Shown piece by piece: positions 20,853 to 37,933 of a DNA stretch of 64,000 bases. The stretch's first letter is position 1, and every line of letters begins with the position of its first letter. Below the pieces are notes generated by a model. That model had not been told where the DNA came from, ran no database searches, and saw nothing but the letters and a program-made list of their open reading frames with translations. Made by a program: the position numbers and the translations under genes. This stretch comes from Acidobacteriota bacterium (GTDB taxonomy: Bacteria; Acidobacteriota; Thermoanaerobaculia; Multivoradales; J023), in contig JAJCXR010000055.1 in the NCBI GenBank assembly GCA_029263315.1, forward strand, positions 124,195-188,194. Direction: 5' to 3'.

Positions 20853-22507
20853 CGGAACCCCCGATGCAGACATCGAGCGATCGACGGACGGCCGCGGCGC
20901 CTACGAGTCCGGTCGCTCAAGTCTTACTGCTGGCCTCGGTGTTTGCCGTGGCCACTTGCGGTTTGGTCTATCAGCTGGTGGCGGGGGCCATTTCCAGCTA
21001 CCTCTTCGGCGACGCGGTCACCCAGTTCTCCCTGGTGATCGGCGTCTTCCTCAGCGCCATGGGGGTGGGCTCGTACTTCTCCCAGTTCATCCGTCGCAAC
21101 CTGCTGGCGACGTTTGTCGAGCTGGAGATTTGGATCGGCCTGGTGGGCGGTACAAGCTCCCTGGCCATGTTCGCCGTCAGCGCCTACGCCGACCAGGTCT
21201 TTGCCCCCTTCTTCTACAGCCTGTGCGGCCTGATCGGCATCATGGTGGGTCTGGAGATCCCGCTGCTGGTACGTATCCTCGGCTCCGGCCGCGGTGCTGA
21301 AGCCACCGCCAGTGCCGCGGTTGCCGATGCCGACAACCTCGCGACCGACGGCGACCAGCCGCTGAGGGACCGTGCCCTCAGCCAAGTCCTGGCCCTCGAC
21401 TACATCGGCGCCCTGGCCGGTTCCCTGGCTTTTCCGTTCTTCGCCTTGCCTTGGTTTGGCCTCAGCCGGGCCTCGGTGGTCTTCGGCATCATGAACCTGG
21501 CGGTGGCCGCCGCCGGCCTGGCGTTGGTGCCTGGGCGTCGAGTCTGGCAAGGCCTGCGGTGGGGCGCCGCGGTCACCCTCTTGGCGGTCACCTTCTTTTA
21601 CTCCGCGGCGTGGATCGGTTTCCTGGAAGATCGCCTCTACCAGGATCAAATCCTCCTCACCCGCGATACTCCCTACCAGCGCATCGTCGTCACCCGCTGG
21701 CGCGACGATGTCCGGCTCTTCCTCAACGGCCACCTGCAATTCAGCTCCGTCGACGAGGCGCGCTATCACGAGAGCTTGGTGGTGCCGATCATGGCGGCCA
21801 CCGCTGCGAAGCAGGTGCTGATCCTCGGCGGCGGCGACGGCCTAGCGGTACGAGAGCTGCTCAAGTTCCCGTCGGTGGAGAGCATCACCTTAGTCGATAT
21901 CGACCCGGAGATGACTCGGTTGGCGGCTAGCCGTCCCGAGCTCAACGCGCTCAATGACGGTGCCCTCGAATCGCCGAAGCTGAGTATCGTCCACCAGGAC
22001 GCCATGCGCTTTCTTCAAGAGGATGCCGGCTTCTACCAGGCCATCCTCATCGACCTGCCCGATCCGTCGACCTTGACTCTAGCCAAGCTCTACTCCCAGT
22101 CCTTTTATGCCCTGGTCATGCGGCGCCTGTCCGAAGATGGCGTTCTGGTGACCCAGGCCACCTCGCCGTACTTCGCCCGGCAGGCCTTTTGGTGTGTCGT
22201 CACCACCCTGGAATCGGTCACCACCGACGCTGAAGAGGCAGCTGGTTTGCCGGTTGTCCAAACCTACCCCTACCGCGTCCACGTGCCCAGCTTCGGTGAG
22301 TGGGGGTTCGTCATGGCCGGCAAGCGCCCGGTGGCCATCGAAGCGTTGCGCGTCCAAGTACCCACCCGCTTCCTCGAAGACGCCGTGCTGCCCGGTCTCT
22401 TTGTCTTCGGCAAAGATATCCAGCGGCAAGAAGCGGAGGTCAACCGGCTGGATCATCCGGTGTTGCATCGGTATTACCAGCGGGGTTGGCAGACATATAA
22501 CGAGTAG
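20849..22507 (+). CDS. Membrane-anchored polyamine aminopropyltransferase (spermidine/spermine synthase-like) fused to an N-terminal multi-TM domain
   Basis: About 7 predicted TM helices in the first ~230 aa. The C-terminal catalytic domain carries VLILGGGDGLAVRELLKF (SAM/dcSAM-binding glycine loop), VDIDPEM and ILIDLPDPST. Its TTG start overlaps the DUF350 stop; an alternative ATG lies at 20864. Confidence 0.85.
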   Translation: MTEPPMQTSSDRRTAAAPTSPVAQVLLLASVFAVATCGLVYQLVAGAISSYLFGDAVTQFSLVIGVFLSAMGVGSYFSQFIRRNLLATFVELEIWIGLVGGTSSLAMFAVSAYADQVFAPFFYSLCGLIGIMVGLEIPLLVRILGSGRGAEATASAAVADADNLATDGDQPLRDRALSQVLALDYIGALAGSLAFPFFALPWFGLSRASVVFGIMNLAVAAAGLALVPGRRVWQGLRWGAAVTLLAVTFFYSAAWIGFLEDRLYQDQILLTRDTPYQRIVVTRWRDDVRLFLNGHLQFSSVDEARYHESLVVPIMAATAAKQVLILGGGDGLAVRELLKFPSVESITLVDIDPEMTRLAASRPELNALNDGALESPKLSIVHQDAMRFLQEDAGFYQAILIDLPDPSTLTLAKLYSQSFYALVMRRLSEDGVLVTQATSPYFARQAFWCVVTTLESVTTDAEEAAGLPVVQTYPYRVHVPSFGEWGFVMAGKRPVAIEALRVQVPTRFLEDAVLPGLFVFGKDIQRQEAEVNRLDHPVLHRYYQRGWQTYNE

Positions 22508-22691
22508 GGGTGTCGATGATCGAGAAGCTCACTGGAGCTATCTCGAAGAGGCGCAGCCGATTCTCGATATGTGGGCGTGCGACCGTTGTGTTTCCATGAC
22601 CTTGCGGCTCAGACAGCGCTCCGTCCGTGCTCGCTCGGAGGGCCTCCCGCTGGCACCAATTTCGGTAGAACTGAATGGACACCAACTAGAA

Positions 22692-22985
22692 CTAAGCGGC
22701 GTCGAGCTCAACCTCTTGAACCTCAGACAGGTCTATTGCCTTTCTAGCTCGATAGAGATCGTAGCTATGCTGCATCGCGAGCCAGCTCTCGGGAGACCGC
22801 CCAAGGGCCTTGGACAAACGCAGTGCCATTTCCGGGCTGATCCCACTGCGCTGGCCAATGACGCGTGCGAGCGTCGAGGGGGATATACCCAAACTTCGGG
22901 CCAACGAACGGATGCTCAAGCCGAACGGCACGATGTAGGTGGCTCGGATGAATTCTCCGGGGTGTGGGGGATTGTGCATGACCAT
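22692..22985 (-). CDS. higA: HigA-type antitoxin (XRE-family HTH)
   Basis: MVMHNPPHPGEFIRATYIVPFGLSIRSLARSLGISPSTLARVIGQRSGISPEMALRLSKALGRSPESWLAMQ is the conserved HigA/VapI antidote HTH. Confidence 0.75.
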   Translation of the reverse strand: MVMHNPPHPGEFIRATYIVPFGLSIRSLARSLGISPSTLARVIGQRSGISPEMALRLSKALGRSPESWLAMQHSYDLYRARKAIDLSEVQEVELDAA

Positions 22986-23054
22986 CAGTGATAATCCTCG
23001 TAGTCCAAGATGTGGACGTTACCATCCTTGAGCTGACGGCTCTCTGGCCTCGGC
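22986..23054 (-). pseudogene. higB: Relic of a HigB-type toxin gene (C-terminal ~24 codons only)
   Basis: The frame ending TGA (overlapping the higA ATG as TGATG) encodes ...KDGNVHILDYEDYH*. This matches the conserved C-terminus of Rts1-type HigB toxins (...NGDAYILNYEDYH). No start codon and no room for the N-terminal ~70 residues: the M20 peptidase stop is at 23055. Confidence 0.5.
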
Positions 23055-24389
23055 TCATTGAACCGGCATCAACTCCTTGAGCGCGATTACCGTTGCCACC
23101 ACACCGCTGCGCACGGAGGGCTCGGGCGAGATCTCGAAGAGCGGCGAATGGTGGGAGGGCACGGGTTTGCCCCCCGCGGCCTCTTCGTCAAAACGCTCCT
23201 TGGGAGTGCCGCCGATGGCGAAATAAGCGCTGGGAATGTACGGATCCGTGGTCAGGAAGCCAAAGTCTTCAGCGCCCATGCCTTGGCGCTCGTGGTCGGC
23301 AAAGACCCCATCGCCGAGCTCAGCGCGCCAACGACTGCTGATCCGCTTGACCAGGGATACATCATTGACGGTGACGGGAACCCCGCCCCGCAGCTCAACC
23401 CGCGGCAGCCGATCCTCCGGCAGACCCGCGGCGCGGCCGGTGTTGACGGCGATACGCTCGATGCCTTCGAGCAGGGTCTGTCTCGTTTTTGTAGAGTCGG
23501 AGCGCACGGTTAGCTCGAGCACCGCCTCTTCGCCGATGATATTTCTCTTGTTACCGGCGCGAAAGACACCGACCGTGACCACCCCCGGTTCTCTGGGGTC
23601 GAGCTCCCGCGACACCAGCTGCTGAAGCGCCACGACGATCTGTGAGCCGATGAGAATCGGATCTTTGCCGCGATGGGGACTGGCCCCATGGGCACCGATG
23701 CCCGGAACGATGATGTCGACGCTGTCGGCCCCTGAGTAGGCGGCGCTCTCGGCGACAAAGATCTTTCCGGCTTCGATGGCCGCGGCCACATGAAAGGCCA
23801 GGGCAAAGTCGGGCTGGCCGAAGCGTTTCCAGAGATCGTCTTGGTGCATTGCCTGGGCGCCGGAAATCTTCCACTCTTCTGCCGGCTGTCCGATCAACAT
23901 GAGCGTGCCGGACCAGGAGCCCTTCTCGGCGGCCATGCGGCGGGCCGTGCCCACCAGTGACGTGATGTGCACATCGTGGCCGCAGGCATGCATCACCGGA
24001 AATTCCTGGCCGTCGTCGTTGACCTGCGTCGCTTGGGAGGCGTAGGGCAGACCCGAGAGCTCCTTGACCGGCAGGCCATCCATGTCGGCCCGCATCATCA
24101 CCAGGGGCCCAGGCCCGTTCTCCATTATGGCCACGATACCCGTGCGTCCCACCTTCTCAGTGACCTCGAAACCGGCGCTACGCAGCTCCGCCGCCAGCCG
24201 TGAAGCGGTCTTGTGCTCGACAAAAGAGTGCTCCGGGTTGGCGTGAAAGTGCTTGAAGAGGGTGCCCAGATGGGCGTCGTAGTCGGCTTTCACCGCCGCG
24301 ATCAGCTCGTCGTTGGCTGATGCCAGGGACGGTAGCCCGACAAGAGCTATCAGGGTGAGGGAAATCATCAGGCGTTGCATCATCGGCAC
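23055..24389 (-). CDS. M20D-family amidohydrolase/peptidase (aminoacylase / hippurate hydrolase-like), secreted
   Basis: Signal peptide MPMMQRLMISLTLIALVGLPSLASA. Metal-binding motif MHACGHDVH and the M20 dimerisation-domain pattern. Confidence 0.85.
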   Translation of the reverse strand: MPMMQRLMISLTLIALVGLPSLASANDELIAAVKADYDAHLGTLFKHFHANPEHSFVEHKTASRLAAELRSAGFEVTEKVGRTGIVAIMENGPGPLVMMRADMDGLPVKELSGLPYASQATQVNDDGQEFPVMHACGHDVHITSLVGTARRMAAEKGSWSGTLMLIGQPAEEWKISGAQAMHQDDLWKRFGQPDFALAFHVAAAIEAGKIFVAESAAYSGADSVDIIVPGIGAHGASPHRGKDPILIGSQIVVALQQLVSRELDPREPGVVTVGVFRAGNKRNIIGEEAVLELTVRSDSTKTRQTLLEGIERIAVNTGRAAGLPEDRLPRVELRGGVPVTVNDVSLVKRISSRWRAELGDGVFADHERQGMGAEDFGFLTTDPYIPSAYFAIGGTPKERFDEEAAGGKPVPSHHSPLFEISPEPSVRSGVVATVIALKELMPVQ

Positions 24390-24536
24390 CTCAAGGTCGT
24401 GGAGTTGGCAGCAGATCCAAGTTGCGACCCTGAGTCAAAAGCGCCCGCGGTCGTACACTTTTGGCCGGATCGTTCAATTTGTGGGAGCTCAGAAGCCTCA
24501 GTTGATTGGAGGATAGCAGCGATCGAATCATGAAGA

Positions 24537-24980
24537 TTACGGCTGGGGTGGGACGATCGGCGCCTCGGCCTGGGCCAGTGCAGCCAAGAGCTCTCTTGGC
24601 ACATAGACGGCAAGGGCGCCGGCCGCGAAGCCGCTAGGATCCCGGGTCACCACCGCTTCCACTCCAGCCTCACGGCCAGCCTCGTGCAGCACTGCGTCAT
24701 CGAAATCTTTGATTCCCGTCAACAGGGCCGATTCCAGGACGCTTCGAGTTACGGGAGCAATCTCGAAGAGCCGAAGCAGATCCTCTAGGAATGTGCAAGC
24801 TGCCGTCGGATTTCGTGCACGGGCCGCAACATAGTGAATCGTCGTCAAGGTCGTTGCGCCGAGGACCCCTGTCAACTCACCTCGCTCTACTAGGTCGATC
24901 AGCTCGGCGGCGCTGTCCGACCACGGTGCTCTGTCCAAGAGAAGATCCAAGACAAGGTTGGTATCAAAGAGAATCTTCAA
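24537..24980 (-). CDS. vapC: PIN-domain ribonuclease toxin (VapC-like)
   Basis: MKILFDTNLVLDLLLDR... with the conserved acidic residues of the PIN fold. Overlaps the upstream antitoxin by 4 bp. Confidence 0.75.
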   Translation of the reverse strand: MKILFDTNLVLDLLLDRAPWSDSAAELIDLVERGELTGVLGATTLTTIHYVAARARNPTAACTFLEDLLRLFEIAPVTRSVLESALLTGIKDFDDAVLHEAGREAGVEAVVTRDPSGFAAGALAVYVPRELLAALAQAEAPIVPPQP

Positions 24981-25216
24981 AGGTGTTTGTCCAACAGGTG
25001 ATTTCGATAGTCGTCCTCATCGATATTCACCCCCGACAGAGTTCCTCGCAACCTCCTGACGATCGGTGACAGCTCTTTTCGAGGCTCGCGAGGGGCTGTC
25101 AGGGCAATGAAGTAGTCTTCGACCAGGCGCGACACCGGCTTGCCGACTTTCCGAGAATAGGACTTGGCACGGTGGATGACGTTTTCATCGAGGCGTAGAG
25201 TTAGCTTCGTATTCAT
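24977..25216 (-). CDS. Putative VapB-type antitoxin (79 aa)
   Basis: MNTKLTLRLDENVIHRAKSYSRKVGKPVSRLVEDYF is a CopG/RHH-like antitoxin N-terminus. Start at the internal Met (25216); the ORF is open to 25255. Confidence 0.5.
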   Translation of the reverse strand: MNTKLTLRLDENVIHRAKSYSRKVGKPVSRLVEDYFIALTAPREPRKELSPIVRRLRGTLSGVNIDEDDYRNHLLDKHL

Positions 25217-25306
25217 CTGCTGAGCCCCCTGTGATGTTGACGTACAGTCTACCATGACAGTGCCGTGCAGCGCCCTGGGTCCTGGAGCCTTTTGACAGGT
25301 GCTTTT

Positions 25307-28300
25307 CTACTCCGCCAAGGCCCGCGTATCGATCTTGCGCAACGACGCCACCAAGTCACGCATCATGTCGAGGTTGCGCAGGGTGCGATCCAGGTAGTGG
25401 GTCATCTGCCGATCGCCCTTGGATTGCTGGCCCAAGGTCTTGACGACGGGCATCAGCTGGTCGTTGACGGCGTCGCTGAGGCGGCTCAGCAATTCGTGCA
25501 CGCCGGGGGTGAGGGACTGGACGACCTCCTTGCCCCGGGGGGCCTCGGCCAGGCGCTCCAGGGTGCTGCCGAGGCGTTCCAGGTAAGGGCTCAGGTCGGT
25601 GCCAGGCACCTGCGGCGGAGCGCTGGCGGGCACAGTGCCCGATGCTGGTGGGAGGTTTTGTGTCGCCTGGAGGACGCCCTTGGCGAGGTGCTCACCGAGC
25701 TCGCTGAAGGTGGCGTCGAGGCGTTCTAGGAGGGGCGACAGGTCGGGCGCGGGCGGGGGGGCCTTTGCCGGCTTGCCCTTGGACGGCGCAGCGGCCTTGG
25801 CCAGGGCTTCGAGACGGGCGATGAGGGTGTCGAGGCGGGGTGCCAGCAGGTCTCCGATGCCGGAGTCGCCGCTTTCCGGGGACGCCGAATCCTGCGACTG
25901 TGCTGCCAGGGCCTCGAGGTTACCCTGCAGCTTGTCGAGGAAGGGATCGACGAGGCCGGCGAGGCTTTGGAGTAGGGGGCCGTCGTCCCGCTGCGGGGCC
26001 TCCCGGGCTTTGTCGATACCGCGGCCGATTTCTCCGAGGCGATCGGAGACCAGCCCCAACTGACCCAGGAGACGAATGGCCGGGTCGTCGTCGGAGCCGC
26101 CCATGGCCTGGACGCGGGCGAAGCCGCGTTTGATCTCTTGCCAACGTTCCTCCTGCTCCGGCGTCAGGGTGCCGCGCAACTCCGCCAGCTTGAGCAGGTT
26201 GTGCTCGGCGCCGCTGGTCAAGGTTTGGGCCTCGCCGATGTAATGATCGTCGATCAGGGCTTCCAGCTCACGATCGTTCATCACCGCCACAACTTTTTCC
26301 GCCAGCTTGTTCATGTTGCGGTAGCTGCCCTGCAACTGGAAGCGGGGCTCGGTGCGATAGGCGTCGTCCTGGGCCGCCGACAGGATGTATTGCTGGTTGA
26401 TGGCCAACACCACCTCTTGGATGCGCAACAGCTTGCGCAGCACTGAGAGGATTTCTTCCAGCTCCATGGCGGAATAGCCGTGGCTCAGCTGGTCGGCCTG
26501 CAGCGCACCGTCGCGGGCCATCTCCACCAGCTTGAAGACATCGTCCGGGTCGCGGGTGGTGAGCGGCGCCAGGACGGCGTTGGAGGTCAGGCTGTTCTCG
26601 ATGTAGCTGAGGGCGAAGACGTCGTCCTTGCCTTCGAGAATGTCCCCCAGGTTGTATGTGTCGGCTCGGTTGGCCAGCATGTCGGGGATCTGGAATTTGT
26701 CACCGGACTCGGTGTAGGGATTGCCGGCCATGCAGATGGCGAAGCGTTTGCCCTTGAAATCGTAGGTGCGGGTGCGGCCGTTCCACACCCCTTCGATGCG
26801 CCGTTGGGCGTCGCAAAGAGAGATGAATTTTTGCAGCAGCTCGGGATGGGTGTGCTGGATGTCGTCGAGGTACAGCAACACATTGTTACCCATCTCCAGG
26901 GCGAAATTGATCTTCTCGACCTCCTGCCGTGCCGTGGCGTTGGGAGCGTCTAGGGGGTCGATGGAGGTGACGGCGTGGCCGAGGGCGGGCCCATTGACCT
27001 TGACGAAGACCAACCCCAGACGGTTGGCGATGTACTCCATCAGGGTGGTTTTGCCATAGCCCGGGGGCGAAATGAGCAGCAAGAGCCCCATCTGATCGGT
27101 GCGTTTGTCGTCGCCGAGGGCGCCCATCTGCTTGGCCAAGTTGTCGCCGATGATCGGCAGGTAGACCTCGTTGATCAGGCGGTTACGGACGAACGAGCTC
27201 ATCACTTGGGGTTTGTATTCACCGAGCCGCAAGGCATGTCGCTGTTGCTCCAGGAGTCGATGCCTGAGGGCCTGGAAACGGCGGAAACCGGGCACTCGAT
27301 GCTGGCGGAAGTGGGCCAGGCGGCTGAGCAGCTCGTCGAGGCGCAAGCTCAGGGTGCGCTGCTCGATCCGAGGATGCTGGCCCAACAATCCGCTGACCTC
27401 GGCTTTGGCCAGGGCTTCGCTGGCCGACCTCTCGATACGGTCGCGGCTGATCAGCTGGACGACGGCCTCATTCTCTGCCGGTGCCAGCTGCATCAGCTCC
27501 TTGGCCCGCTGGCTCACATCGTCGTCGGAGGCTGCGCCCGCGGAGGCGAGGAAACCGCCCAGCCAAGCCTTGGCCAGGTGAAAGCGCTGGCCGAGATGCC
27601 CTTCCAGCTCCTGCAAATCCCGCTGCAATTCACCTGCGCTGCGACTGTTCTTCAGGTGTTCGGAGAACAGCTCGAGCAGCTTGTTGGCTTCGGCGCTGAT
27701 CACCAAACGCACCGGGTCTTGGCACAGCTCTTCGAAGAGATAACCCCCCGCCATGTGGGCGTCCTCCGGTGTCAGCTCGATGCTGTGCTGACGGTGGAAG
27801 GCGGCGATGCCCTCGCTGAGCTCTGCGGCCAAGGTGACGATGGCCGGGCTGTGGGCGAAGGCGGTCCGCAGGCGTGCCAGGCTGACGGCGCGACGGTGCC
27901 AGGTGGCACGCTGCGTCGCCTCGTCGAAGAAGGCCCAGTAGAGGACAGCGGCGGCCCTGGCCCGGGGTGTGAAGCGCAGCAGGCCCGCATTGGAGTAGAG
28001 CGCTATCAGCTGTTGCAGGATGAGCACCGTGTCGGCGTCGTGTAGTCCCCGCTCGTAGCCTTCGTCATAGCGCTCGGCGCTGTAGGTGCGCACCAAGCCG
28101 AGGAGGGCCCCGGGCTCTTCCGCCGCTTGCTGCAGGGCCGTCAAGCTGAGCCCTGCCCGCTCTTCCTCGGCATCGAAGAGGATCGAGGCGGCGAGATACT
28201 CCCCCCGGTAGACCTGCGCCGTTTCGGAGACCAAATGCTGGTCCCAGTAGTCGCGGGTGGCAGCAAAGGCCTCGTCGTTCACCGGCTGATAGAAATCGGT

Positions 28301-30970
28301 GCCGGTGAGGTGATAGGCCATGGTCGTCTGCCCCTCGTCGTCGGCCCTGGGTACCAAAGTGAGGGCGACGGGCTGGGTGTTGACGCTGAAGCGGTGACGG
28401 CCGAATTTGATGACGTTGCTGCCGTCCTCGAAGATATCTTGCCGGTCGCGCAGGGCACGGGCGGCCTCTTCTTTCGTCGCCTTGAGGCGCGAGTCCAGCT
28501 CGTCGGCGCGGACGTTTTCTTTGATTTCCCGCAGCTCTGAGGCCAGGTCCCGCACCTTGGCCACCATGGCGTCGCCGACGAAATAGGTATTGAGATCGTC
28601 GGCCGACTCGAGGGCCGAGGCTCGGCGGGTGATGCCCTCGAGGATGCGTTGCGCCGCCTGCACCATGCGACCGGCCCGTCGCTGCCGGGCGTCGAGCAAG
28701 GATTGCTTGCGGGAGCTGAAAGCCTCGTAGACGTCCTCTCGCTTGGTGGCCAGTTGCTCGATGAACTGGTCGAGCTCGCCGAAGCGGCTTTCCAGCTCTT
28801 CCAGCTGCAGCATCAGCTTGGAGAGTTGCTCGTCGCATTTCTCCGGCGTATCGGCCATCGCCAAGGCGCCGCTCACCGCCTGGCTGAAAAGCTTGAACTG
28901 GGCGCCAAACTCGGCCACCCCTTCGGCCGACATCAGCTCCTTGCGCCGCGCCTCGAGCAGGGCGCGGCCGCGGTTGAGGTTGCCTAAAACCTCGGAAATG
29001 TCTTCCAAGATGGCGGTGCGAACCGTGGCGTCGTCGATGTCGAGACCACCCAAGACGTCGTTGAGCAGCTCGAGGCTGGTGGCCACGTGGTCGAGCCCGT
29101 CGCGGATGGGGACGGTCTCGGCGACCTTGGCGACCTCATCCACCGAGGCCACCAGCCCTTCGATCTTCTGGTGGTACGGCGCCAGGGCGGTGTCGCCTTC
29201 GAGAAAGGCCACCATTTGATCACTGAGCTCGGAAAAGCGCTCGACGAGGCGCTGCTCTAGGGCATCGACCCGCTCTTGATCGACGTAGCGCAACTCCCGC
29301 ACGGTGAGCAGGTGGCCCCGTTGGTGGCGCAACTCGGCGAGGGCATCGACGAAGTGGTCGACGGCGTCGCGGGACTGTCGCCGCAGGGTTTCGAAAAGCT
29401 CTTCCAGGGTGCCCTCGGCGGCGTCGGTGGCTTCCTGGGCGCGACGCTGAATGGCTTGGACCTTGGCGAATTCGTCGACGATGAGCTCGGCGGTGCCGTA
29501 GATCTCCTGCAGCTCGTCGGCCAAGTTGCCGACTTCGTCGCGATTCAACCAGTAGTAGGTGTCCTGGGCTCGCACCACACTGGCGATCAGATCCTCGTAG
29601 GTCTGCGTCGTCGGCTCTTGATCTTCGATGGTGCGGCAAATGGAGAGGGCGTCCGAGATGCCGCGCACCAGATCGGCATTGCCCACCTTCTCCAGAAAGG
29701 TCCCCTGGGACGGCGCCTGGGCGGCGTGCACGTCGCTCATGTAGGGGGTCTGCCAGACCTGCATCGGGTGGACCCGCGTCGGCTCGCTGGAGACGGCGCG
29801 GAAGATCACCAGGCGGCCGTCGTCGAAGAGGCTGAAGCCATTGCAGTAGATGGGGTTCTCCACCTGCTTGCGGATCATGTTGTACGACAACAGGATGCTC
29901 TGGCCGCTGTCGCGCTCGTGGAAGACGTAGAGCACATCTTCGCCATTGGGAGAGCGCACTGACTTGAGGAATTCCATCTGCTCGATGTTGCCCTCAAAGG
30001 TCTTGGTCTCACCGTTCTGCAGGTAGTAGCCGCCGGGAAAGATCAGGCCGTGGTCCTCTGGCAGCAGCAGACAGGCTTGGCCGATGGCGTCGATGCGATG
30101 CACCTTCTGGTTGCGGGTATTGAAGATCAGATAACGCCAGATGGTCTCGTTGTAGGGCAGGATCTTGAGCAGGATCAGGCTGCCCACCTTGGCGTAGTGG
30201 ACCTGCGCGTCATCGAGGCTCTGCTGCGCTTCGTCGACATCTTCGCTGTAGATGCCGAGGCCGTCCTCGGTGTTGTCCTCCACCTTGACGGTGAGGTCAC
30301 CGCCTACCGTTTCGACGAAGACTTCGTCGAGGATGTTGACGTGGGGATGCCGTCCGTGCACGTGATGCTGGCGGCCGGTCTCCTGCCACTCGAAGTCGTG
30401 GGAGGGCGGAAAGACATGGTCCCGCTCGCCGCGATTGTCGATGTAGGTAACCCGGCCCTGCGGGTCCACCGCCCAGCGGAAGACTTTGAAATCCGTCAGG
30501 TTGGCGCCGGTGCGGAAGACCGCCAGCAGCTTGCCTTCGGTGCGTCGGAGCTGCATCAGGCGAGCGTCTTTGTAGTACTTGTAGAGCTCTTGGAAGTCCC
30601 GCAGCAAGGTACGGTCGTTGAGGAAGTACTGCCGTGCGTCCGTGGCCACCGGCTCGAAAGAGAAGGTGTCGTCCTTCTCGACGAAACGGTGCAGGCTGAG
30701 CACGTCCTCCATGTGGGTCTCGGTCTTGAGCCCCAGAAAGACGTTGTAGCCGAAGAGCAAGAGCTCACCGACGGCTCGGATGTCCCGCGGCACACAGTTG
30801 TGCTCGGTGCGGATGCGCTCGTTGCCGATCAACGCCATCTCGGTGCCGCCGAAGAGCTCCAGGCGCTCGCCGTTGAGGCTGTTGGCCTTCTTGGCGAGCT
30901 TCTTGGAATGCTCCCCTAGGCGGCCCCGGAGAATCTCGTAGGTGCCGCGTTCGATGGTGTCGCTGCTCAT
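25307..30970 (-). CDS. Giant (1887 aa) multidomain protein with a single dynein/MoxR-type (AAA_5-like) AAA+ module in its C-terminal third
   Basis: Walker A LLLISPPGYGKTTLMEYI (about nt 27045-27080), Walker B NVLLYLDDIQ, sensor FAICMAGNP. The N-terminal ~430 aa are beta-rich (possibly a propeller). About 850 aa of helical/coiled-coil follow before the AAA+ domain; the C-terminal ~350 aa are helical with a Pro/Ala-rich linker. The stop lies 5 bp after the start of the upstream flotillin gene. Confidence 0.8.
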   Translation of the reverse strand: MSSDTIERGTYEILRGRLGEHSKKLAKKANSLNGERLELFGGTEMALIGNERIRTEHNCVPRDIRAVGELLLFGYNVFLGLKTETHMEDVLSLHRFVEKDDTFSFEPVATDARQYFLNDRTLLRDFQELYKYYKDARLMQLRRTEGKLLAVFRTGANLTDFKVFRWAVDPQGRVTYIDNRGERDHVFPPSHDFEWQETGRQHHVHGRHPHVNILDEVFVETVGGDLTVKVEDNTEDGLGIYSEDVDEAQQSLDDAQVHYAKVGSLILLKILPYNETIWRYLIFNTRNQKVHRIDAIGQACLLLPEDHGLIFPGGYYLQNGETKTFEGNIEQMEFLKSVRSPNGEDVLYVFHERDSGQSILLSYNMIRKQVENPIYCNGFSLFDDGRLVIFRAVSSEPTRVHPMQVWQTPYMSDVHAAQAPSQGTFLEKVGNADLVRGISDALSICRTIEDQEPTTQTYEDLIASVVRAQDTYYWLNRDEVGNLADELQEIYGTAELIVDEFAKVQAIQRRAQEATDAAEGTLEELFETLRRQSRDAVDHFVDALAELRHQRGHLLTVRELRYVDQERVDALEQRLVERFSELSDQMVAFLEGDTALAPYHQKIEGLVASVDEVAKVAETVPIRDGLDHVATSLELLNDVLGGLDIDDATVRTAILEDISEVLGNLNRGRALLEARRKELMSAEGVAEFGAQFKLFSQAVSGALAMADTPEKCDEQLSKLMLQLEELESRFGELDQFIEQLATKREDVYEAFSSRKQSLLDARQRRAGRMVQAAQRILEGITRRASALESADDLNTYFVGDAMVAKVRDLASELREIKENVRADELDSRLKATKEEAARALRDRQDIFEDGSNVIKFGRHRFSVNTQPVALTLVPRADDEGQTTMAYHLTGTDFYQPVNDEAFAATRDYWDQHLVSETAQVYRGEYLAASILFDAEEERAGLSLTALQQAAEEPGALLGLVRTYSAERYDEGYERGLHDADTVLILQQLIALYSNAGLLRFTPRARAAAVLYWAFFDEATQRATWHRRAVSLARLRTAFAHSPAIVTLAAELSEGIAAFHRQHSIELTPEDAHMAGGYLFEELCQDPVRLVISAEANKLLELFSEHLKNSRSAGELQRDLQELEGHLGQRFHLAKAWLGGFLASAGAASDDDVSQRAKELMQLAPAENEAVVQLISRDRIERSASEALAKAEVSGLLGQHPRIEQRTLSLRLDELLSRLAHFRQHRVPGFRRFQALRHRLLEQQRHALRLGEYKPQVMSSFVRNRLINEVYLPIIGDNLAKQMGALGDDKRTDQMGLLLLISPPGYGKTTLMEYIANRLGLVFVKVNGPALGHAVTSIDPLDAPNATARQEVEKINFALEMGNNVLLYLDDIQHTHPELLQKFISLCDAQRRIEGVWNGRTRTYDFKGKRFAICMAGNPYTESGDKFQIPDMLANRADTYNLGDILEGKDDVFALSYIENSLTSNAVLAPLTTRDPDDVFKLVEMARDGALQADQLSHGYSAMELEEILSVLRKLLRIQEVVLAINQQYILSAAQDDAYRTEPRFQLQGSYRNMNKLAEKVVAVMNDRELEALIDDHYIGEAQTLTSGAEHNLLKLAELRGTLTPEQEERWQEIKRGFARVQAMGGSDDDPAIRLLGQLGLVSDRLGEIGRGIDKAREAPQRDDGPLLQSLAGLVDPFLDKLQGNLEALAAQSQDSASPESGDSGIGDLLAPRLDTLIARLEALAKAAAPSKGKPAKAPPPAPDLSPLLERLDATFSELGEHLAKGVLQATQNLPPASGTVPASAPPQVPGTDLSPYLERLGSTLERLAEAPRGKEVVQSLTPGVHELLSRLSDAVNDQLMPVVKTLGQQSKGDRQMTHYLDRTLRNLDMMRDLVASLRKIDTRALAE

Positions 30971-30974
30971 CGCC

Positions 30975-33026
30975 TCAGGACTTGAAGAGGGCCGAGAGCT
31001 TTACATCTTCGACGCCCATGCGCTCGACCACTTCCGACAGCTGCTCGAGCTTGACCTGTTTGTCGCCTTCGGACTTGCTCGCCAATTGGGAGAGGAAGGC
31101 GGCCAGGGTGAGATTGCGCACATCGGCGCTGGAGGTGGCGGGACGGGTGAGCACGTCCTTGAGGTCGGCGGCAAAGCTGGAATCGCCGCTGAGGTAGTCG
31201 CCGAGCAGCTTCTGGCCGGTTTCGCTGCGATCGATGAAACCATCGATGGATTTGCTCATGCCGATGCTGTTGACCAGGCGATCGAAGAACATGCTGTCGC
31301 CGCCGACGATGTCGATCTTGGCGTTCTGCAGGCCCGTCGACAGCACACCGGCTTGCACCTCTGCCACTTTGCGGTGGGCGTCCACTTGTGCCAGGGCGAC
31401 ATCCTTCTCCATGGCCAGGCGCAAGCGAAATTCCTCGTGCTCCTGGCTGGCTTCGTCGAGGGCCTTCATGGCGTTGGCTTTCTCGGTCAGGCCCTCGGCT
31501 TCGCCCTTGAGCTTTTCGCGGATGGCTTCGGCTTCCGCCAAACCCATTTCCTTGAGCACCTTGGCTTCGATGAGCTGCATGCGCTCCTCGGCATCGACAT
31601 CCGCTTGTTTGACTTCCACCTCCGCCAGTCCGACCTTCTTGGTGGCGTCGGCATTGGCTTCTTTGACCCGCACTTGGGCCAAGCCGACCTTCTCGATGGC
31701 CTCGGCGTCGGCCTCTTTGACTTGGACCTCGGCCAAACCCCTGGCGGCGGTCTCCGCCTGCACACCTTCGGCCATTCGCATCTTGGCTTTGGCTTCCTTG
31801 TCGCTGGCTTCGAGGTGGGCTTCGGCGAGGATCAGCTGTTCGCGGCCCTTGTGCTTGGCGGCGGCTTCGGCGGCTTCGGCGGCCTTGATGTCCTTGACCA
31901 ACTGTTCTTCGGCGTGGGCTTCGGCGCCGATGATGGTCGCTTCTTTGGTCCGGTTGGCCTCTTCGACGAGGCGCAGCCGCTTGATGGCCTCCTCCTCCTC
32001 CGCCACCGTCTTCTCCACCGAGATGCGCTCGCGGATAACGCTGGCGATGTCCCGTTTCTGGACTTCCACTTCCTTGTCCTTGGCGATGGTCTGGAGCTCG
32101 GTCTCCCGTTCCCGGGAGATGACCTCGATCAGGCGTTCCTTTTCGACCCGCTCGGTCTCCACGGCCACCACCCGCTCGCGGTTCTTTTGGGCCACCTCCA
32201 CTTGACGCTTGAGGTTCTCCTCCTGGACGGCGATGTCCTCATCGGCCTTGATGCGCGCCGTCTCGAACTTGAGCCGTTCCTCGGCCTCGATTTTTTGTGT
32301 TTCCGCCTGCTCCCGGGCCCGGACCGACAGGATCTCCCGCTGCTGTTTGGCCTCGGCGTCGGATTTCTGACGCTCGAGCTCGAAGATGGCCTCCGCCGCT
32401 TCGACATCCTGCTTGGTGATCTGCTTCTTCTCGGTGTTCTGGAACTCGTTGGTGCGCACGTGCTCGATGGCCGTCAGCTCAGTGATCTTGCGGATACCCT
32501 GGGCATCGAGGATATTGTGCTCGTCGAGCTTTGAAATTGGCGTCTGCTCGAGGTAGTCGATGGCGCAGTCTTCGAGGGAATAGCCGTTGAGATCCTGGCC
32601 AATGACCTCGATGATCTCATCGCGAAACTCTTTCCGCTGGGTGTAGAGATCGACGAAATCCAGCTTCTTGCCCGCGGTTTTCAAAGCTTCCGAGAATTTG
32701 GCGGCGAAGAGGTGCTCCAGCGTTTTCTGATCCGAAGCGCGGGCGCAGCCGATGATCTGTGCCACCTTGATGACGTCTTCGGCGGTTTTGTTGACCCGCA
32801 CGAAGAAGGTCACTTTGATGTCGGCGCGGATGTTGTCGCGACAGATCAAGCCATCAGAGCCGCTGCGATCGATCTCGATGGTCTTGACCGAGATGTCCAT
32901 GAGCTCGGCTTTGTTGATCACCGGGACAACCAGGCCGCCGGTGAAGCTGACCGTCACCGTGCCCCTGACCACGTTGCTCAGAACCAATGCTTTGCCTTGT
33001 TCTACCTTGAGAATGCCGAATGCCAT
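30975..33026 (-). CDS. SPFH/band-7 flotillin-like protein (YqiK-like) with a long Glu/Ala-rich coiled-coil tail
   Basis: N-terminal membrane hairpin + SPFH domain (MAFGILKVEQGKALVLSNVVRGTV...). Extended EA-rich repeats (GLAEVQVKEADAEAIEKV / GLAQVRVKEANADATKKV / GLAEVEVKQADVDAEERM). Confidence 0.85.
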   Translation of the reverse strand: MAFGILKVEQGKALVLSNVVRGTVTVSFTGGLVVPVINKAELMDISVKTIEIDRSGSDGLICRDNIRADIKVTFFVRVNKTAEDVIKVAQIIGCARASDQKTLEHLFAAKFSEALKTAGKKLDFVDLYTQRKEFRDEIIEVIGQDLNGYSLEDCAIDYLEQTPISKLDEHNILDAQGIRKITELTAIEHVRTNEFQNTEKKQITKQDVEAAEAIFELERQKSDAEAKQQREILSVRAREQAETQKIEAEERLKFETARIKADEDIAVQEENLKRQVEVAQKNRERVVAVETERVEKERLIEVISRERETELQTIAKDKEVEVQKRDIASVIRERISVEKTVAEEEEAIKRLRLVEEANRTKEATIIGAEAHAEEQLVKDIKAAEAAEAAAKHKGREQLILAEAHLEASDKEAKAKMRMAEGVQAETAARGLAEVQVKEADAEAIEKVGLAQVRVKEANADATKKVGLAEVEVKQADVDAEERMQLIEAKVLKEMGLAEAEAIREKLKGEAEGLTEKANAMKALDEASQEHEEFRLRLAMEKDVALAQVDAHRKVAEVQAGVLSTGLQNAKIDIVGGDSMFFDRLVNSIGMSKSIDGFIDRSETGQKLLGDYLSGDSSFAADLKDVLTRPATSSADVRNLTLAAFLSQLASKSEGDKQVKLEQLSEVVERMGVEDVKLSALFKS

Positions 33027-33052
33027 GGAATCAATACCTCCAGAAAAAGGGC

Positions 33053-33817
33053 TCAGAGATCGCGGACGAGCGGCGACGGCGCGGCCGTCTCGACATCGGC
33101 GCGCGGTTGAGCGACGAAAAAAACTTGGGTCTGAGGGTCGTAGTCGAAGATCAATGCCTTGTCGCCGCGACGCAAGGTGTTGGCGTCTCGACTGCGGGCT
33201 TGGATGAGAATCGTCGAGGCGTCATTGTCCACCACTTCGGCCTGGCCGAAGGTTCCGTCGACCCTCAGCGTGGTGACGGTGCAGACCTTGCCCACCAGGT
33301 CGGAATGCTGGGTCACCGGCGGTAGGGCGAAGACCTTTTTCAGCGGACGCAGGCTGATCGAGGTGGCCACCAAGGAAGCTCCGACGGAGCCGACTCCCAC
33401 AGCCCAAGGCACCAAGGCCACCATCGAGGCTGCCAGATCGAGGTGGGAAATCCACGACGATCCGAAGTAGGACCCCAGCCAGCCGAAGACCGTGAAGGTG
33501 GTGAGGATGATGATGCTCGGCACCCCTCCCAGACCGAGGCAACCATCGTGGTCGCCCATGCCATCGGCCCCTTCGGCCAAACCCTCGGCGGCGCCCTCCG
33601 CGGCCCCTTCGATCATGCCTTCGGCGGCCCCGCCGATGGAGTCCGTCGCGCCACCCAAGGACTCGGCGGCTCCGCCGACGGAATCAAAGACGCCGTCCAG
33701 GATCTCTAGATCCAGAATGCCGAAAAGAAACGTCAGCCAGTAGAAAGCCACCAGGATCAGCAGCCCGCTGAAAATGGCGGTGGGTAGCGAGAAGGCGGCT
33801 TCGAGGAACGCGCTCAT
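33053..33817 (-). CDS. NfeD-like membrane protein (YqiJ-like) with C-terminal OB-fold
   Basis: N-terminal TM helices, a Gly/Ala-rich middle, and a C-terminal NfeD OB-fold-like segment GKVCTVTTLRVDGTFGQAEVVDNDASTILIQARSRD..LRRGDKALIFDYD. Sits 26 bp upstream of the flotillin gene, which is the classic yqiJ-yqiK arrangement. Confidence 0.65.
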   Translation of the reverse strand: MSAFLEAAFSLPTAIFSGLLILVAFYWLTFLFGILDLEILDGVFDSVGGAAESLGGATDSIGGAAEGMIEGAAEGAAEGLAEGADGMGDHDGCLGLGGVPSIIILTTFTVFGWLGSYFGSSWISHLDLAASMVALVPWAVGVGSVGASLVATSISLRPLKKVFALPPVTQHSDLVGKVCTVTTLRVDGTFGQAEVVDNDASTILIQARSRDANTLRRGDKALIFDYDPQTQVFFVAQPRADVETAAPSPLVRDL

Positions 33818-33980
33818 GGTTTGTGGCTCACAGGAAAGAGGTTGTCGGTCACAACCCTCTTTACGGTAGGCGAGGACGCTCTATTCGTCACCATCTCCTC
33901 GATTGTGTGAGCGGGTTCTCAGTCCCTCGGCCCGCCGAAGCAGCCCATAGGTCGAAGCTTCATCACCCCAGCGCCCAGCC

Positions 33981-36440: not shown

Positions 36441-36649
36441 GTGATGTCGTCGTCCGCCAAAGACTGTATTGCACCTGCCAACAGGGTGCTCCCATCAACA
36501 GAGGTCTGTATTGATTGTCCTGTGTCGATCTTTCTGGGCCGATCGTAGCTTCAGAACCTGTAGTGTCTAGGTACGTTCTTACCCCGTGATCATAGCGGAT
36601 CGACGGGGCATCGCCCATGGCCCATTTCGAATGCCGACGTCGGAGGGCC

Positions 36650-37933
36650 TCAGCAGAGGGGAGTGTCCTCGCCGAGGGGCAAAAGGGGGGCGCTGGGGGT
36701 CAAGGGAGCGTCCTCCGGCTCGCCGACGCTCCAGGTGGCGTCGAGCTCTGCCAAGTAGGCGCGCACCGACCCGGCGACGCTAGCTGCGATCTGGCCCGCC
36801 ACCTGATCGGCATCACTGCGCAGACGCCAAGGCAAGCCTCGATCATCGAGGTCGCAGAGCAGATCCTTGCGGACCTCGAGGCCGAGGCAGCTGGGTCGCA
36901 CCTTGGGATCAAGACGGTACATCTCCACCAGCTCGTTGCGATGGGTGGCCTGGAAGCGACTGATCTTGGCGTAGGCTTTGCGGGCTTCGGCGAACAGGGT
37001 TTCGCTGCCGGGGGGGGCTTCCCGATAGCGGTGCAAGTAGGCCCGGAGGCGTTCGCAGGGGGCAGAGCGGCGAACCACGTCGAGCAAAAGCTGCCAAATC
37101 CGTTGGTAGGCCAGCTGATCGCTGGTCTCCGGGTGGGCAGCGGTGAAGCGACGCCGCAGGAAGCGGAAATAAAACCAGACCTGGGCACGGATCTCCACCG
37201 AGCCTTCGGGCATCAAATAGGGATAGTCGAGGGCGGTGGGCCAATCCAGGTCCTCGAGATCGAGGGCGATGCGATAGCTCAGCTTGCGGTGCGTCGTTTG
37301 CTCCCCGAGGATATGTGGGAACAGCGGATCAAAGATGAATGGAGGCATCTCCGATGTCTCCTGATAGGAGAGAGAGCGGGTCACCAGGCTGATTTCGGGC
37401 CGTGAGGTGCCGGTGCGATTCACCTGATCGTAGGTGTGAACCGCCAAGGTCAGGCGCCGGTCGGCGAAATGCTGCACCAGATTCTGAGACATGGTGTCGT
37501 AATAGCGCGCCAACAGGTCATGGCGCGCCTCTTCGGAGAGTAAATGCTGCAACGGCGGGAAGATGGAGTGGCGTAGCAGGTAATTCTCGCCGATCGACGA
37601 AATACCCGGGAAGCGGCCGAAATCGAGCACCACACGGGCCAACGAAACTCGCAGGTAGGAGTCTTGTCCGAGCTCTTTGGCGAGGTGGCGAGCCACCAGA
37701 TTGGCACCCCAATCGCGCTCGCGGGCATAGGCGTCACGGACTTCCGGTAGGTCGATCACTTGGTCGCTGCGTTCGCCGAAGAGATGACGCGGGAAGCCAT
37801 CCCCATCATGGATGGTGAAGACCAGCGGTCCGTCGGGGTCGGTGGCCGTTTGGGGTTGGCTAGACACCGGAATCCTCTCCAGCGGCTCCATCGCATCGAC
37901 GATCTTGGGGCGGGGCGATTCGGTAACAGTCAT
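36650..37933 (-). CDS. Hypothetical protein, N-formylglutamate amidohydrolase (FGase)-like N-terminal domain with a ~150-aa C-terminal extension
   Basis: LVFTIHDGDGFPRHL, ARVVLDFGRFPG and LTLAVHTYD align by eye to the FGase motifs (..PHAG.., ..IDLNRP.., ..WDAHS..). Weak call. Confidence 0.35.
   Translation of the reverse strand: MTVTESPRPKIVDAMEPLERIPVSSQPQTATDPDGPLVFTIHDGDGFPRHLFGERSDQVIDLPEVRDAYARERDWGANLVARHLAKELGQDSYLRVSLARVVLDFGRFPGISSIGENYLLRHSIFPPLQHLLSEEARHDLLARYYDTMSQNLVQHFADRRLTLAVHTYDQVNRTGTSRPEISLVTRSLSYQETSEMPPFIFDPLFPHILGEQTTHRKLSYRIALDLEDLDWPTALDYPYLMPEGSVEIRAQVWFYFRFLRRRFTAAHPETSDQLAYQRIWQLLLDVVRRSAPCERLRAYLHRYREAPPGSETLFAEARKAYAKISRFQATHRNELVEMYRLDPKVRPSCLGLEVRKDLLCDLDDRGLPWRLRSDADQVAGQIAASVAGSVRAYLAELDATWSVGEPEDAPLTPSAPLLPLGEDTPLC

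What the first reader, a model, noticed from the sequence alone, without database searches (positions are those of the whole stretch)
22692..23054. Orphan HigA antitoxin next to a 24-codon relic of its HigB toxin
The intact HigA-type HTH gene is preceded by a start-less reading frame ending ...KDGNVHILDYEDYH. The stop TGA overlaps the higA ATG (TGATG). That tail is the conserved C-terminus of Rts1-type HigB toxins. The remaining ~70 N-terminal codons are gone: the M20 peptidase gene ends 1 bp away. This is a textbook toxin-loss / antitoxin-retention event.
Basis: partly seen in the sequence, partly recalled or inferred. Interest (0 to 1): 0.5.

Follow-up and report, generated by a model that had tools for sequence, protein, structure and literature searches.

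The report
Leftover antitoxin gene, toxin deleted
This is the decayed remnant of a mobile toxin–antitoxin gene pair: the antitoxin gene (higA) is whole and only the last 16 codons of its toxin gene (higB) remain, which is a common and well-understood kind of genomic debris.

Summary
An intact 97-aa HigA antitoxin gene lies at 22692–22985 on the minus strand (TIGR02607, E 2.5e-31). A start-less frame ending QLKDGNVHILDYEDYH precedes it, and that frame's TGA overlaps the higA ATG.

Seven distinct close HigA relatives (about 75–87% identical, 13 loci) all carry a full 92-codon higB at that position with the same TGATG overlap. That higB is an Rts1-type toxin (PF05015; PDB 4MCT, E 1e-25).

DNA homology to those operons covers only 23035–22692. 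It is 78–79% identical in the relic and 77–78% in higA, then drops to about 39%. So 16–17 toxin codons survive, not 24, and about 76 are gone. The conserved promoter/operator is gone too. So are the attC-like repeats that flank the unit as an integron cassette in several relatives.

The neighbouring M20 amidohydrolase gene keeps its normal C-terminus. No other higB lies in the 64 kb window. HigA shows no sign of decay and keeps its ribosome-binding site inside the relic. It is probably co-transcribed with the M20 gene, but that is inferred.

A second toxin fragment, of a PIN_3 gene, lies on the other side of higA. No relative with an intact operon at this locus was found.

Verdict: real, correctly interpreted and ordinary.

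The parts
22692..22985 (-). Intact higA antitoxin gene encoding a 97-aa XRE-type helix-turn-helix protein.
   Evidence: It matches TIGR02607 at E 2.5e-31 and HTH_3 at E 5.7e-9. It matches solved HigA structures 2ICP, 6F8S and 4MCX at E 1e-15 to 3e-17. Only 2 conservative deviations (V34I, F94L) occur at 68 columns conserved at 90% or more, which is within the range of its 119 closest homologues.
22988..23035 (-). higB toxin relic: the last 16 codons (QLKDGNVHILDYEDYH), with no start codon. Its stop TGA at 22985–22987 overlaps the higA ATG.
   Evidence: tblastn with an intact HigB hits only here, E 4e-6, HigB residues 78–93. The relic is 78–79% nt identical to higB 3' ends of relatives, against 39–41% for the preceding 51 nt.
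22995..22999 (-). GAGGA ribosome-binding site for higA, 9 nt before the ATG and lying inside the higB relic.
   Evidence: Read from the sequence. These columns are invariant in the alignment with the intact operons. Its function is inferred.
23036..23054 (-). 19-nt spacer between the M20 stop codon and the start of higB homology. The deletion or rearrangement junction lies here.
   Evidence: No similarity to higB. The M20 C-terminus ...KELMPVQ* has the normal length and sequence seen in its homologues.
23055..24389 (-). Neighbouring M20-family amidohydrolase gene, intact. It is the probable source of transcription reaching higA.
   Evidence: It matches TIGR01891 at E 1.2e-77 and Peptidase_M20 plus M20_dimer. 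Homologues align through residues 441–444. No terminator-like or promoter-like site was found in 22400–24600.
23030..23075 (-). Predicted RNA hairpin spanning the M20 stop codon and ending at the junction. No U-tract follows it.
   Evidence: The 106-nt segment containing the hairpin folds at -36.9 kcal/mol, z -2.6, and 4 of 200 shuffles fold as well. Its significance is uncertain.
22509..22592 (-). Second toxin relic: a 28-codon internal fragment of a PIN_3 (VapC-like) gene. It lies downstream of higA and abuts the stop codon of the convergent spermidine-synthase-like gene (22507).
   Evidence: It is 14/28 aa identical (E 5e-7 pairwise) to residues 57–84 of the intact PIN_3 gene at 24537..24980. 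A 64-nt direct repeat is 70% identical. It has no Pfam hit of its own.

Best explanation
This is the decayed remnant of a horizontally acquired higBA type II toxin–antitoxin cassette.

**Shown.** The ancestral unit, as preserved in close relatives, has five parts. They are a promoter with a palindromic operator, a GTG-start 92-codon higB (a RelE-like ribosome-dependent mRNase), a TGATG overlap, a 97-codon higA, and in several relatives flanking attC-like integron recombination sites. In this genome only the last 48 nt of higB and all of higA survive. They lie between an intact M20 amidohydrolase gene and a fragment of a PIN_3 toxin gene.

**Inferred.**
- The toxin was inactivated by deletion or rearrangement. 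That loss is tolerated, whereas losing the antitoxin first would be lethal. This asymmetry explains why the antitoxin is what remains.
- higA can still be translated, because its GAGGA ribosome-binding site lies inside the retained relic.
- Having lost its own autoregulated promoter, higA is most likely transcribed by read-through from the M20 gene. That gene is 69 nt upstream on the same strand, with no recognisable terminator between.
- The HigA protein is either a neutral leftover awaiting decay, or it is kept because it can neutralise incoming HigB toxins (anti-addiction) or bind DNA as a regulator. The sequence data cannot separate these options.
For: - HigA is identified and intact.
- The relic frame and the TGATG overlap are as described.
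- The only HigB-like stretch in the window is 23035..22988, E 4e-6.
- All 13 loci of 7 close HigA homologues have a 92-codon higB in that position. That higB matches PF05015 at E 2e-23 and PDB 4MCT HigB at E 1e-25 over the full length.
- Homology is sharply bounded. The relic is 78–79% identical and higA 77–78%, then identity falls to 39% upstream. Downstream, homology ends at the higA stop codon.
- The conserved promoter/operator TTGTTGCGTGATGCGCAACGCGCTATACT of the relatives is absent from the window.
- attC-like repeats flank the unit in relatives. L010 has three copies, and an IntI-like N-terminus lies beside higBA in L009. None is present in the window.
- The M20 C-terminus is intact.
- GC content dips to 56–58% over the toxin–antitoxin segments, against 63–65% around them.
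- Three separately assembled contigs have the identical junction.
- No terminator or sigma-70 promoter was found between M20 and higA.
- Literature: HigA-1 is among the most prevalent orphan antitoxins in one marine MAG catalogue (GOMC) and the most abundant in the other (MEER) (PMC12654330). Many orphan antitoxins are remnants of degraded systems, and anti-addiction has been proposed as a role (PMC7354431, PMC2654758). HigA (TIGR02607) is among the commonest functions in integron cassettes, and toxin–antitoxin cassettes carry their own promoter (PMC7370490, PMC2654758).
Against: - No orthologous locus with an intact higBA between the M20 and spermidine-synthase-like genes was found. The 80 genome and 80 metagenome loci holding the closest M20 homologues (at most 81% identity) share no synteny. 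It is therefore not shown that the deletion happened in place. The fragment could have arrived already truncated.
- Expression of higA is inferred only. A fairly stable hairpin covers the M20 stop codon and the junction and might limit read-through.
- The sigma-70 consensus scan may not suit this organism.
- A higB elsewhere in the genome, beyond the 64 kb window, cannot be excluded.
- The three confirming assemblies come from consecutive run accessions. They are probably the same study and population as the source contig.
Confidence: 0.88

Rival explanations
1. Assembly artefact: the metagenomic contig is chimeric at the M20/higB junction, and the real genome has a complete higBA.
For: The window appears to come from a metagenome-assembled contig. 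Contigs from the same samples break about 380 bp away, at 22608–22632, so the population or the assembly graph is not simple here.
Against: Three separately assembled contigs (SRR15505517, SRR15505518, SRR15505519) run uninterrupted and 100% identical from the DUF3686 or PIN genes through M20, the relic and higA. The break lies on the other side of higA, not at the junction.
Confidence: 0.03
2. Chance resemblance: the 16-residue tail is not derived from higB.
For: The stretch is short, and neither Pfam nor NCBIfam scores it.
Against: tblastn gives E 4e-6 within the window. The stretch is 78–79% nt identical to real higB 3' ends, the same divergence as the adjacent higA. It sits in the exact operon position with the identical TGATG overlap.
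Confidence: 0.01
3. Domesticated antitoxin: the toxin was lost, and higA is actively maintained. It is co-expressed with the M20 amidohydrolase and works as immunity against incoming HigB toxins on integron cassettes or plasmids (anti-addiction), or as a transcription factor with new targets.
For: HigA shows no decay: 2 conservative changes at 68 conserved columns, which is typical of toxin-linked homologues. The retained relic is just enough to keep the ribosome-binding site. The gene is on the same strand as M20, 69 nt away, with no terminator between. Closely related HigB toxins circulate on mobile cassettes. Anti-addiction has been proposed for orphan antitoxins (PMC7354431, PMC2654758).
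Against: Intactness may only mean the deletion is recent, since the relic is no more diverged than higA. The cognate operator is absent from the 64 kb window. F94, invariant in 119 homologues, is changed to L. There are no expression or binding data.
Confidence: 0.2
4. The higA fragment arrived already truncated, for example by illegitimate recombination of a cassette fragment. On this reading it did not decay in place from a complete resident operon.
For: Both ends of the homologous block are trimmed exactly, to higB codon ~77 on one side and the higA stop codon on the other. No attC, promoter or integrase is nearby. No syntenic intact locus was found.
Against: An antitoxin-only fragment has no obvious means of fixation. 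In-place decay of toxin–antitoxin modules is the commonly documented route (PMC7354431). A second toxin relic next door suggests repeated insertion and erosion at this convergent intergenic site.
Confidence: 0.1

Closest known systems
HigBA of Proteus vulgaris plasmid Rts1 (PDB 4MCT/4MCX)
   Same: It has the same gene order, with the toxin first. The HigB of the close relatives aligns over its full length at E 1e-25, including the C-terminal ...YEDYH tail that survives here. The window HigA matches 4MCX chain A at E 3e-15.
   Different: Here only 16 toxin codons remain, and the promoter/operator is gone. The module cannot act as a toxin–antitoxin system.
higBA gene cassettes of chromosomal integrons (the Vibrio cholerae superintegron higBA-1 and higBA-2, cited in PMC2654758 and PMC7370490)
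   Same: Several close relatives of this higA are flanked by 85–90-nt attC-like repeats and carry their own promoter. One lies beside an IntI-like gene, and another sits in an array with a GFA (PF04828) cassette.
   Different: The window copy has no attC-like repeat, no integrase nearby and no promoter. It is embedded between ordinary chromosomal genes.
Orphan antitoxins as remnants of degraded type II toxin–antitoxin systems (the Klebsiella pneumoniae complex survey summarised in PMC7354431; marine MAG survey PMC12654330)
   Same: An intact antitoxin gene stands without a functional toxin, with a recognisable toxin remnant beside it. HigA-1 is among the most prevalent orphan antitoxins in the GOMC catalogue and the most abundant in MEER (PMC12654330).
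   Different: Nothing is essentially different. This is one more example, here with the relic, the missing operator and the cassette ancestry documented at nucleotide level.
Anti-addiction modules (chromosomal ccd of Erwinia chrysanthemi acting against F-plasmid ccd; PMC2654758)
   Same: A chromosomal antitoxin related to antitoxins of mobile toxin–antitoxin modules could neutralise an incoming toxin.
   Different: The ccd example is a complete module with experimental proof. Here the role is only a possibility, and the toxin partner is absent.

Membership tests
HigA antitoxin (TIGR02607 / XRE-HTH) | Scores above the curated cut-off of the HigA equivalog model and has an HTH_3 domain. | tested here: met
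   TIGR02607 scores 107.4 bits against a cut-off of 47.7, E 2.5e-31. HTH_3 scores E 5.7e-9. It matches solved HigA structures.
HigA antitoxin (TIGR02607 / XRE-HTH) | Encoded directly downstream of a higB toxin gene in one operon. | tested here: not met
   Only a 16-codon, start-less higB remnant lies upstream. The feature is met in all 13 related loci.
HigA antitoxin (TIGR02607 / XRE-HTH) | Binds and neutralises HigB, and represses the higBA promoter through a palindromic operator. | not testable with these tools
   The relatives' candidate operator GTTGCG-N5-CGCAAC is absent from the window beyond chance.
HigB toxin (Pfam PF05015, RelE-like) | Complete domain of about 92 aa with a start codon. 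| tested here: not met
   The frame is closed by a TGA 27 codons upstream. Only HigB residues 77/78–92 are recognisable, and there is no Pfam or NCBIfam hit.
HigB toxin (Pfam PF05015, RelE-like) | Conserved C-terminal ...Y-E-D-Y-H tail. | tested here: met
   The relic tail LDYEDYH aligns with LNYEDYH of 4MCT chain B and LDYEDYH of the relatives.
Functional type II toxin–antitoxin module | Both toxin and antitoxin genes are intact and share an autoregulated promoter. | tested here: not met
   The toxin is truncated and the promoter/operator is missing.
Integron gene cassette | Bounded by an attC recombination site (RYYYAAC ... GTTRRRY imperfect palindrome). | tested here: not met
   The relatives' attC-like ends, GCCTAACAAGGCGCTGCAGC and GCTGAGCTTGGTCGTTAGGC, have no match in the window at up to 3 mismatches. 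Homology ends at the higA stop codon. In the relatives the repeats are present. No dedicated attC model was available, so they are called attC-like only.
PIN_3 (VapC-like) toxin, for the second relic | Complete PIN domain with its acidic catalytic residues. | tested here: not met
   Only 28 codons resemble residues 57–84 of the neighbouring intact PIN_3 protein. The 81-aa ORF has no Pfam hit.

The most novel reading that the evidence does not exclude
After losing its toxin and its own promoter, the orphan higA has been captured into the transcription unit of the M20 amidohydrolase gene. It is maintained by selection as standing immunity against the closely related HigB toxins that circulate on integron cassettes in the same environments (an anti-addiction gene), or as a repurposed regulator.
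Probability: 0.15. Interest if true: 0.35.

Novelty: already known. Interest (0 to 1): 0.15.

Why it matters
It matters little on its own. Orphan antitoxins beside toxin remnants are a recognised end-state of toxin–antitoxin decay, and HigA is among the commonest orphans in marine genomes (PMC12654330).

The case is a clean, nucleotide-level illustration of that process. It shows which parts of a mobile higBA cassette are lost: the promoter/operator, 76 toxin codons and the attC boundaries. It also shows the minimum that is kept: higA plus the 48 nt holding its ribosome-binding site.

One practical by-product may be more useful. In 6 of the 7 related HigA families examined, the intact GTG-start higB was missing from the gene tables. 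Survey counts of 'orphan HigA' that rely on gene calls are therefore probably inflated. Orphan status should be checked at the DNA level, as was done here.

Tried and rejected
- **Synteny search.** I looked for an intact higBA at the same locus among the 80 closest M20 homologues in species-representative genomes and the 80 closest in metagenome contigs. None has higA, higB, the spermidine-synthase-like gene, the PIN_3/DUF6364 pair or the DUF3686 protein within 5–6 kb. The small ORFs downstream of M20 in the closest relatives (78–81% identity) have no Pfam family.
- **Missing higB 5' part elsewhere.** I searched the window for it, including the PIN–M20 and DUF3686–DUF6364 spacers. Only chance-level hits appeared, the best at E 0.09–0.16.
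- **DUF6364 antitoxin relic.** I looked for one between higA and the PIN fragment and found nothing significant.
- **HigA operator or promoter.** I searched the window for the relatives' operator and promoter. Matches did not exceed chance.
- **Promoter and terminator scan of 22400–24600.** It found none.
- **Naming the organism.** Exact look-up of the window's proteins returned no names.
- **Clipped M20 gene.** I considered that the M20 gene was clipped or fused by the event. I rejected this because its C-terminus matches its homologues in both length and sequence.
- **Repeat-induced contig break.** I considered that the Logan contig break at 22608–22632 was caused by the PIN-like repeat. This is unlikely, because the repeat is only 70% identical. 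The cause is unresolved.
- **attC-like repeat folding.** Single-strand folds of the relatives' repeats show the expected paired ends, but the energies do not stand out from shuffled sequence. The attC assignment rests on position, repetition and core-site motifs.

Full report
**1. What is in the sequence**

On the minus strand, 22692..22985 is an uninterrupted 97-codon ORF. It matches the NCBIfam equivalog TIGR02607, 'HigA family addiction module antitoxin', at E 2.5e-31 (107 bits, cut-off 47.7). It also matches Pfam HTH_3 at E 5.7e-9, and solved HigA structures 2ICP, 6F8S/6F8H and 4MCX at E 1e-15 to 3e-17.

Directly upstream, the minus-strand frame reads *CRFNEPRPESRQLKDGNVHILDYEDYH*. Its TGA at 22987..22985 overlaps the higA ATG as TGATG. 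The frame has no usable start codon and is closed by a TGA at 23071..23069.

The M20-family amidohydrolase gene (23055..24389, same strand; TIGR01891 E 1.2e-77, Peptidase_M20 plus M20_dimer) ends with the TGA at 23057..23055.

**2. Is the tail really a higB remnant?**

The closest HigA homologues in the protein collection are 75–87% identical. I fetched 13 loci for seven distinct homologues.

- Every locus has a 92-codon ORF ending ...FEF(R/K)DGNVHVLDYEDYH* immediately upstream of higA, with the same TGATG overlap.
- Twelve of these ORFs are uninterrupted. One (L010) has a single frameshift, in a 2x-coverage long-read contig.
- That protein matches Pfam PF05015 (HigB-like toxin) at E 2e-23. 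It aligns end to end with Proteus vulgaris/Rts1 HigB (PDB 4MCT chain B, E 1e-25), which ends ...ILNYEDYH.
- Searched against the whole window, this HigB hits only 23035..22988 (residues 78–93, E 4e-6). The next best hit has E about 0.09.
- At the DNA level, the last 48–51 nt before the higA ATG are 78–79% identical to the relatives' higB 3' ends. That equals the divergence of higA itself (77–78%). The preceding 51 nt are only 39–41% identical.

So 16–17 toxin codons survive, not 24, and about 76 are missing. The junction lies in the 19 nt between 23036 and the M20 stop codon.

The M20 protein ends ...KELMPVQ*, at the same position and with the same motif (...ELMPxx*) as its homologues. The event therefore did not clip it.

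**3. What else was lost, and where the module came from**

Upstream of higB, all relatives share the invariant block TTGTTGCGTGATGCGCAACGCGCTATACT. I read this as a -35/-10 promoter pair with the palindrome GTTGCG-N5-CGCAAC between the two hexamers, which would be the likely HigA operator. This is an inference from the sequence. Neither the block nor an excess of the palindrome occurs anywhere in the 64 kb window.

In L004–L008, L010 and L176 the higBA unit is bracketed by 85–90-nt repeats.

- The repeats begin GCCTAACAAGGCGCTGCAGC, and the higA stop codon lies inside this motif. They end ...GCTGAGCTTGGTCGTTAGGC.
- These ends have the RYYYAAC/GTTRRRY core motifs and paired-end fold of integron attC sites. 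The fold energies are not exceptional.
- L010 has three copies in 3.6 kb, together with a GFA (PF04828) gene, which is a typical cassette function (PMC7370490).
- In L009 an ORF carrying an IntI-like N-terminal motif (...RYHHYSYKTEQIYVSWIVRFIRFSG...) lies divergent from higBA. That resemblance rests on my own recollection of the IntI1 sequence.

Other relatives sit next to IS110 or DDE transposases. So this higBA lineage is mobile, and in several cases it is an integron cassette carrying its own promoter. This is a known arrangement (PMC2654758, PMC7370490).

The window has none of the attC-like sequence. Homology stops at the higA stop codon. GC content falls to 56–58% over the toxin–antitoxin segments, against 63–65% around them. 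That is consistent with foreign origin.

**4. Context**

higA lies at the meeting point of two convergent gene sets.

- **Plus strand:** a polyamine-related cluster of AdoMet decarboxylase, two DUF4178 genes, DUF350 and a spermidine-synthase-like gene ending at 22507.
- **Minus strand:** a DUF3686/AAA 1887-aa protein, an intact DUF6364–PIN_3 toxin–antitoxin pair, and M20.

Between the higA stop and the spermidine-synthase-like gene lies a second relic. 22509..22592 (minus strand) encodes 28 residues that are 50% identical (E 5e-7 pairwise) to residues 57–84 of the intact PIN_3 toxin 2 kb away. A 64-nt DNA match is 70% identical. The site looks like a place where toxin–antitoxin cassettes have repeatedly landed and eroded.

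**5. Is it an artefact?**

Three separately assembled Logan contigs (SRR15505517, SRR15505518, SRR15505519) are 100% identical to the window across M20, the relic and higA. They all stop at 22608. Contigs from the other side stop at 22632. So there is an assembly-graph branch between higA and the PIN fragment, but not at the higB junction.

**6. State and likely working of the remaining gene**

HigA departs from the 90%-or-more consensus of its 119 nearest homologues at only two of 68 conserved columns, V34I and F94L. That is inside the homologues' own range of 0–4, so there is no sign of decay.

The GAGGA ribosome-binding site (22995..22999, 9 nt before the ATG) lies within the retained relic and is invariant among relatives. 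This may be why that much of higB persists.

With its own promoter gone, no promoter-like or terminator-like site in 22400–24600, and only 69 nt to the M20 stop on the same strand, read-through from M20 is the most economical source of transcription. This is inferred. A predicted hairpin (23030..23075; the 106-nt segment containing it folds at -36.9 kcal/mol, z -2.6) covers the M20 stop and ends at the junction. It has no U-tract, and it could modulate read-through.

Whether the protein is merely not yet decayed, protects against incoming HigB toxins (anti-addiction; PMC2654758, PMC7354431), or regulates something cannot be decided here.

**7. What could not be done**

No relative with an intact operon at the same chromosomal position was found. 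The 160 loci holding the closest M20 homologues (at most 81% identity, the best in a Marinacidobacterales MAG) share no synteny with the window. In-place deletion therefore cannot be formally separated from arrival of an already truncated fragment. The rest of the genome could not be searched for a higB acting in trans.

**8. Comparison and verdict**

This is a degraded Rts1-type higBA module with an orphan antitoxin. It is a well-documented outcome of toxin–antitoxin evolution. HigA-1 is among the most prevalent orphan antitoxins in the GOMC marine MAG catalogue and the most abundant in MEER (PMC12654330). Many orphan antitoxins have been traced to degraded systems (PMC7354431).

- The relic is 16–17 codons, not 24.
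- The promoter/operator and the cassette ends were lost as well.
- The relatives' modules have an integron-cassette ancestry.
- A second toxin relic lies alongside.

Novelty: already known. Interest: low.

Noticed in passing
window 22509-22592 (minus strand): A 28-codon fragment of a PIN_3 (VapC-like) toxin gene lies downstream of higA and abuts the stop codon of the convergent spermidine-synthase-like gene. It is 14/28 aa identical, and 70% identical over 64 nt, to the intact PIN_3 gene at 24537-24980. It is a second toxin relic at the same site.
   Followed up: partly
window 22608-22632: All Logan contigs from three runs stop here. The higA-side contigs end at 22608 and the spermidine-synthase-side contigs at 22632. 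This suggests an assembly-graph branch, from strain variation or a shared k-mer, between higA and the PIN relic. The cause was not resolved.
   Followed up: partly
L004-L010, L173-L176 (upstream of each higA): An intact GTG-start 92-codon higB is present but missing from the called-gene tables in 6 of the 7 related HigA families. Counts of 'orphan HigA' based on annotation are probably inflated.
   Followed up: yes
L004 2598-2688 and 3289-3378; L010 20-37, 2614-2631 and 3291-3308; L009 about 950-1345: The relatives' higBA units are flanked by 85-90-nt attC-like repeats. L010 has three copies plus a GFA (PF04828) cassette, and in L009 an IntI-like N-terminal motif is encoded divergently from higBA. 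This higBA lineage travels as an integron cassette.
   Followed up: partly
window 22704-22706 (HigA residue 94): Phe94 is invariant in the 119 closest, toxin-linked HigA homologues but is Leu in this orphan copy. This could reflect relaxed constraint on a toxin-contact or tail residue, or it could be nothing.
   Followed up: no
window 23030-23075 (minus strand): A predicted RNA hairpin spans the M20 stop codon and ends exactly where higB homology begins. The 106-nt segment containing it folds at -36.9 kcal/mol, z -2.6, and no U-tract follows the hairpin. It could be an mRNA 3' structure or related to how the junction formed.
   Followed up: no
window 24537-25255 (minus strand): An apparently intact DUF6364-PIN_3 toxin-antitoxin pair lies just upstream of the M20 gene (Pfam E 4e-22 and 1e-22). 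It sits in a low-GC patch of 56-58%.
   Followed up: partly
window 25307-37933 (minus strand): A 1887-aa DUF3686/DUF7902/AAA protein is preceded by co-directional ORFs of 683, 254, 819 and 427 aa that have no Pfam hit. Of these ORFs, the 683-, 254- and 819-aa ones were also scanned against PADLOC and have no hit; the 427-aa one was not scanned. The large protein has only a weak LmuB-like PADLOC hit, E 9e-6. This is an uncharacterised large-protein cluster.
   Followed up: no
L010 2724-2998: The higB of this relative carries a single frameshift. The N-terminal 23 codons are in one frame and the remainder in another. The contig is a 2x-coverage long-read assembly, so a sequencing error is as likely as a real toxin-inactivating mutation.
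   Followed up: no
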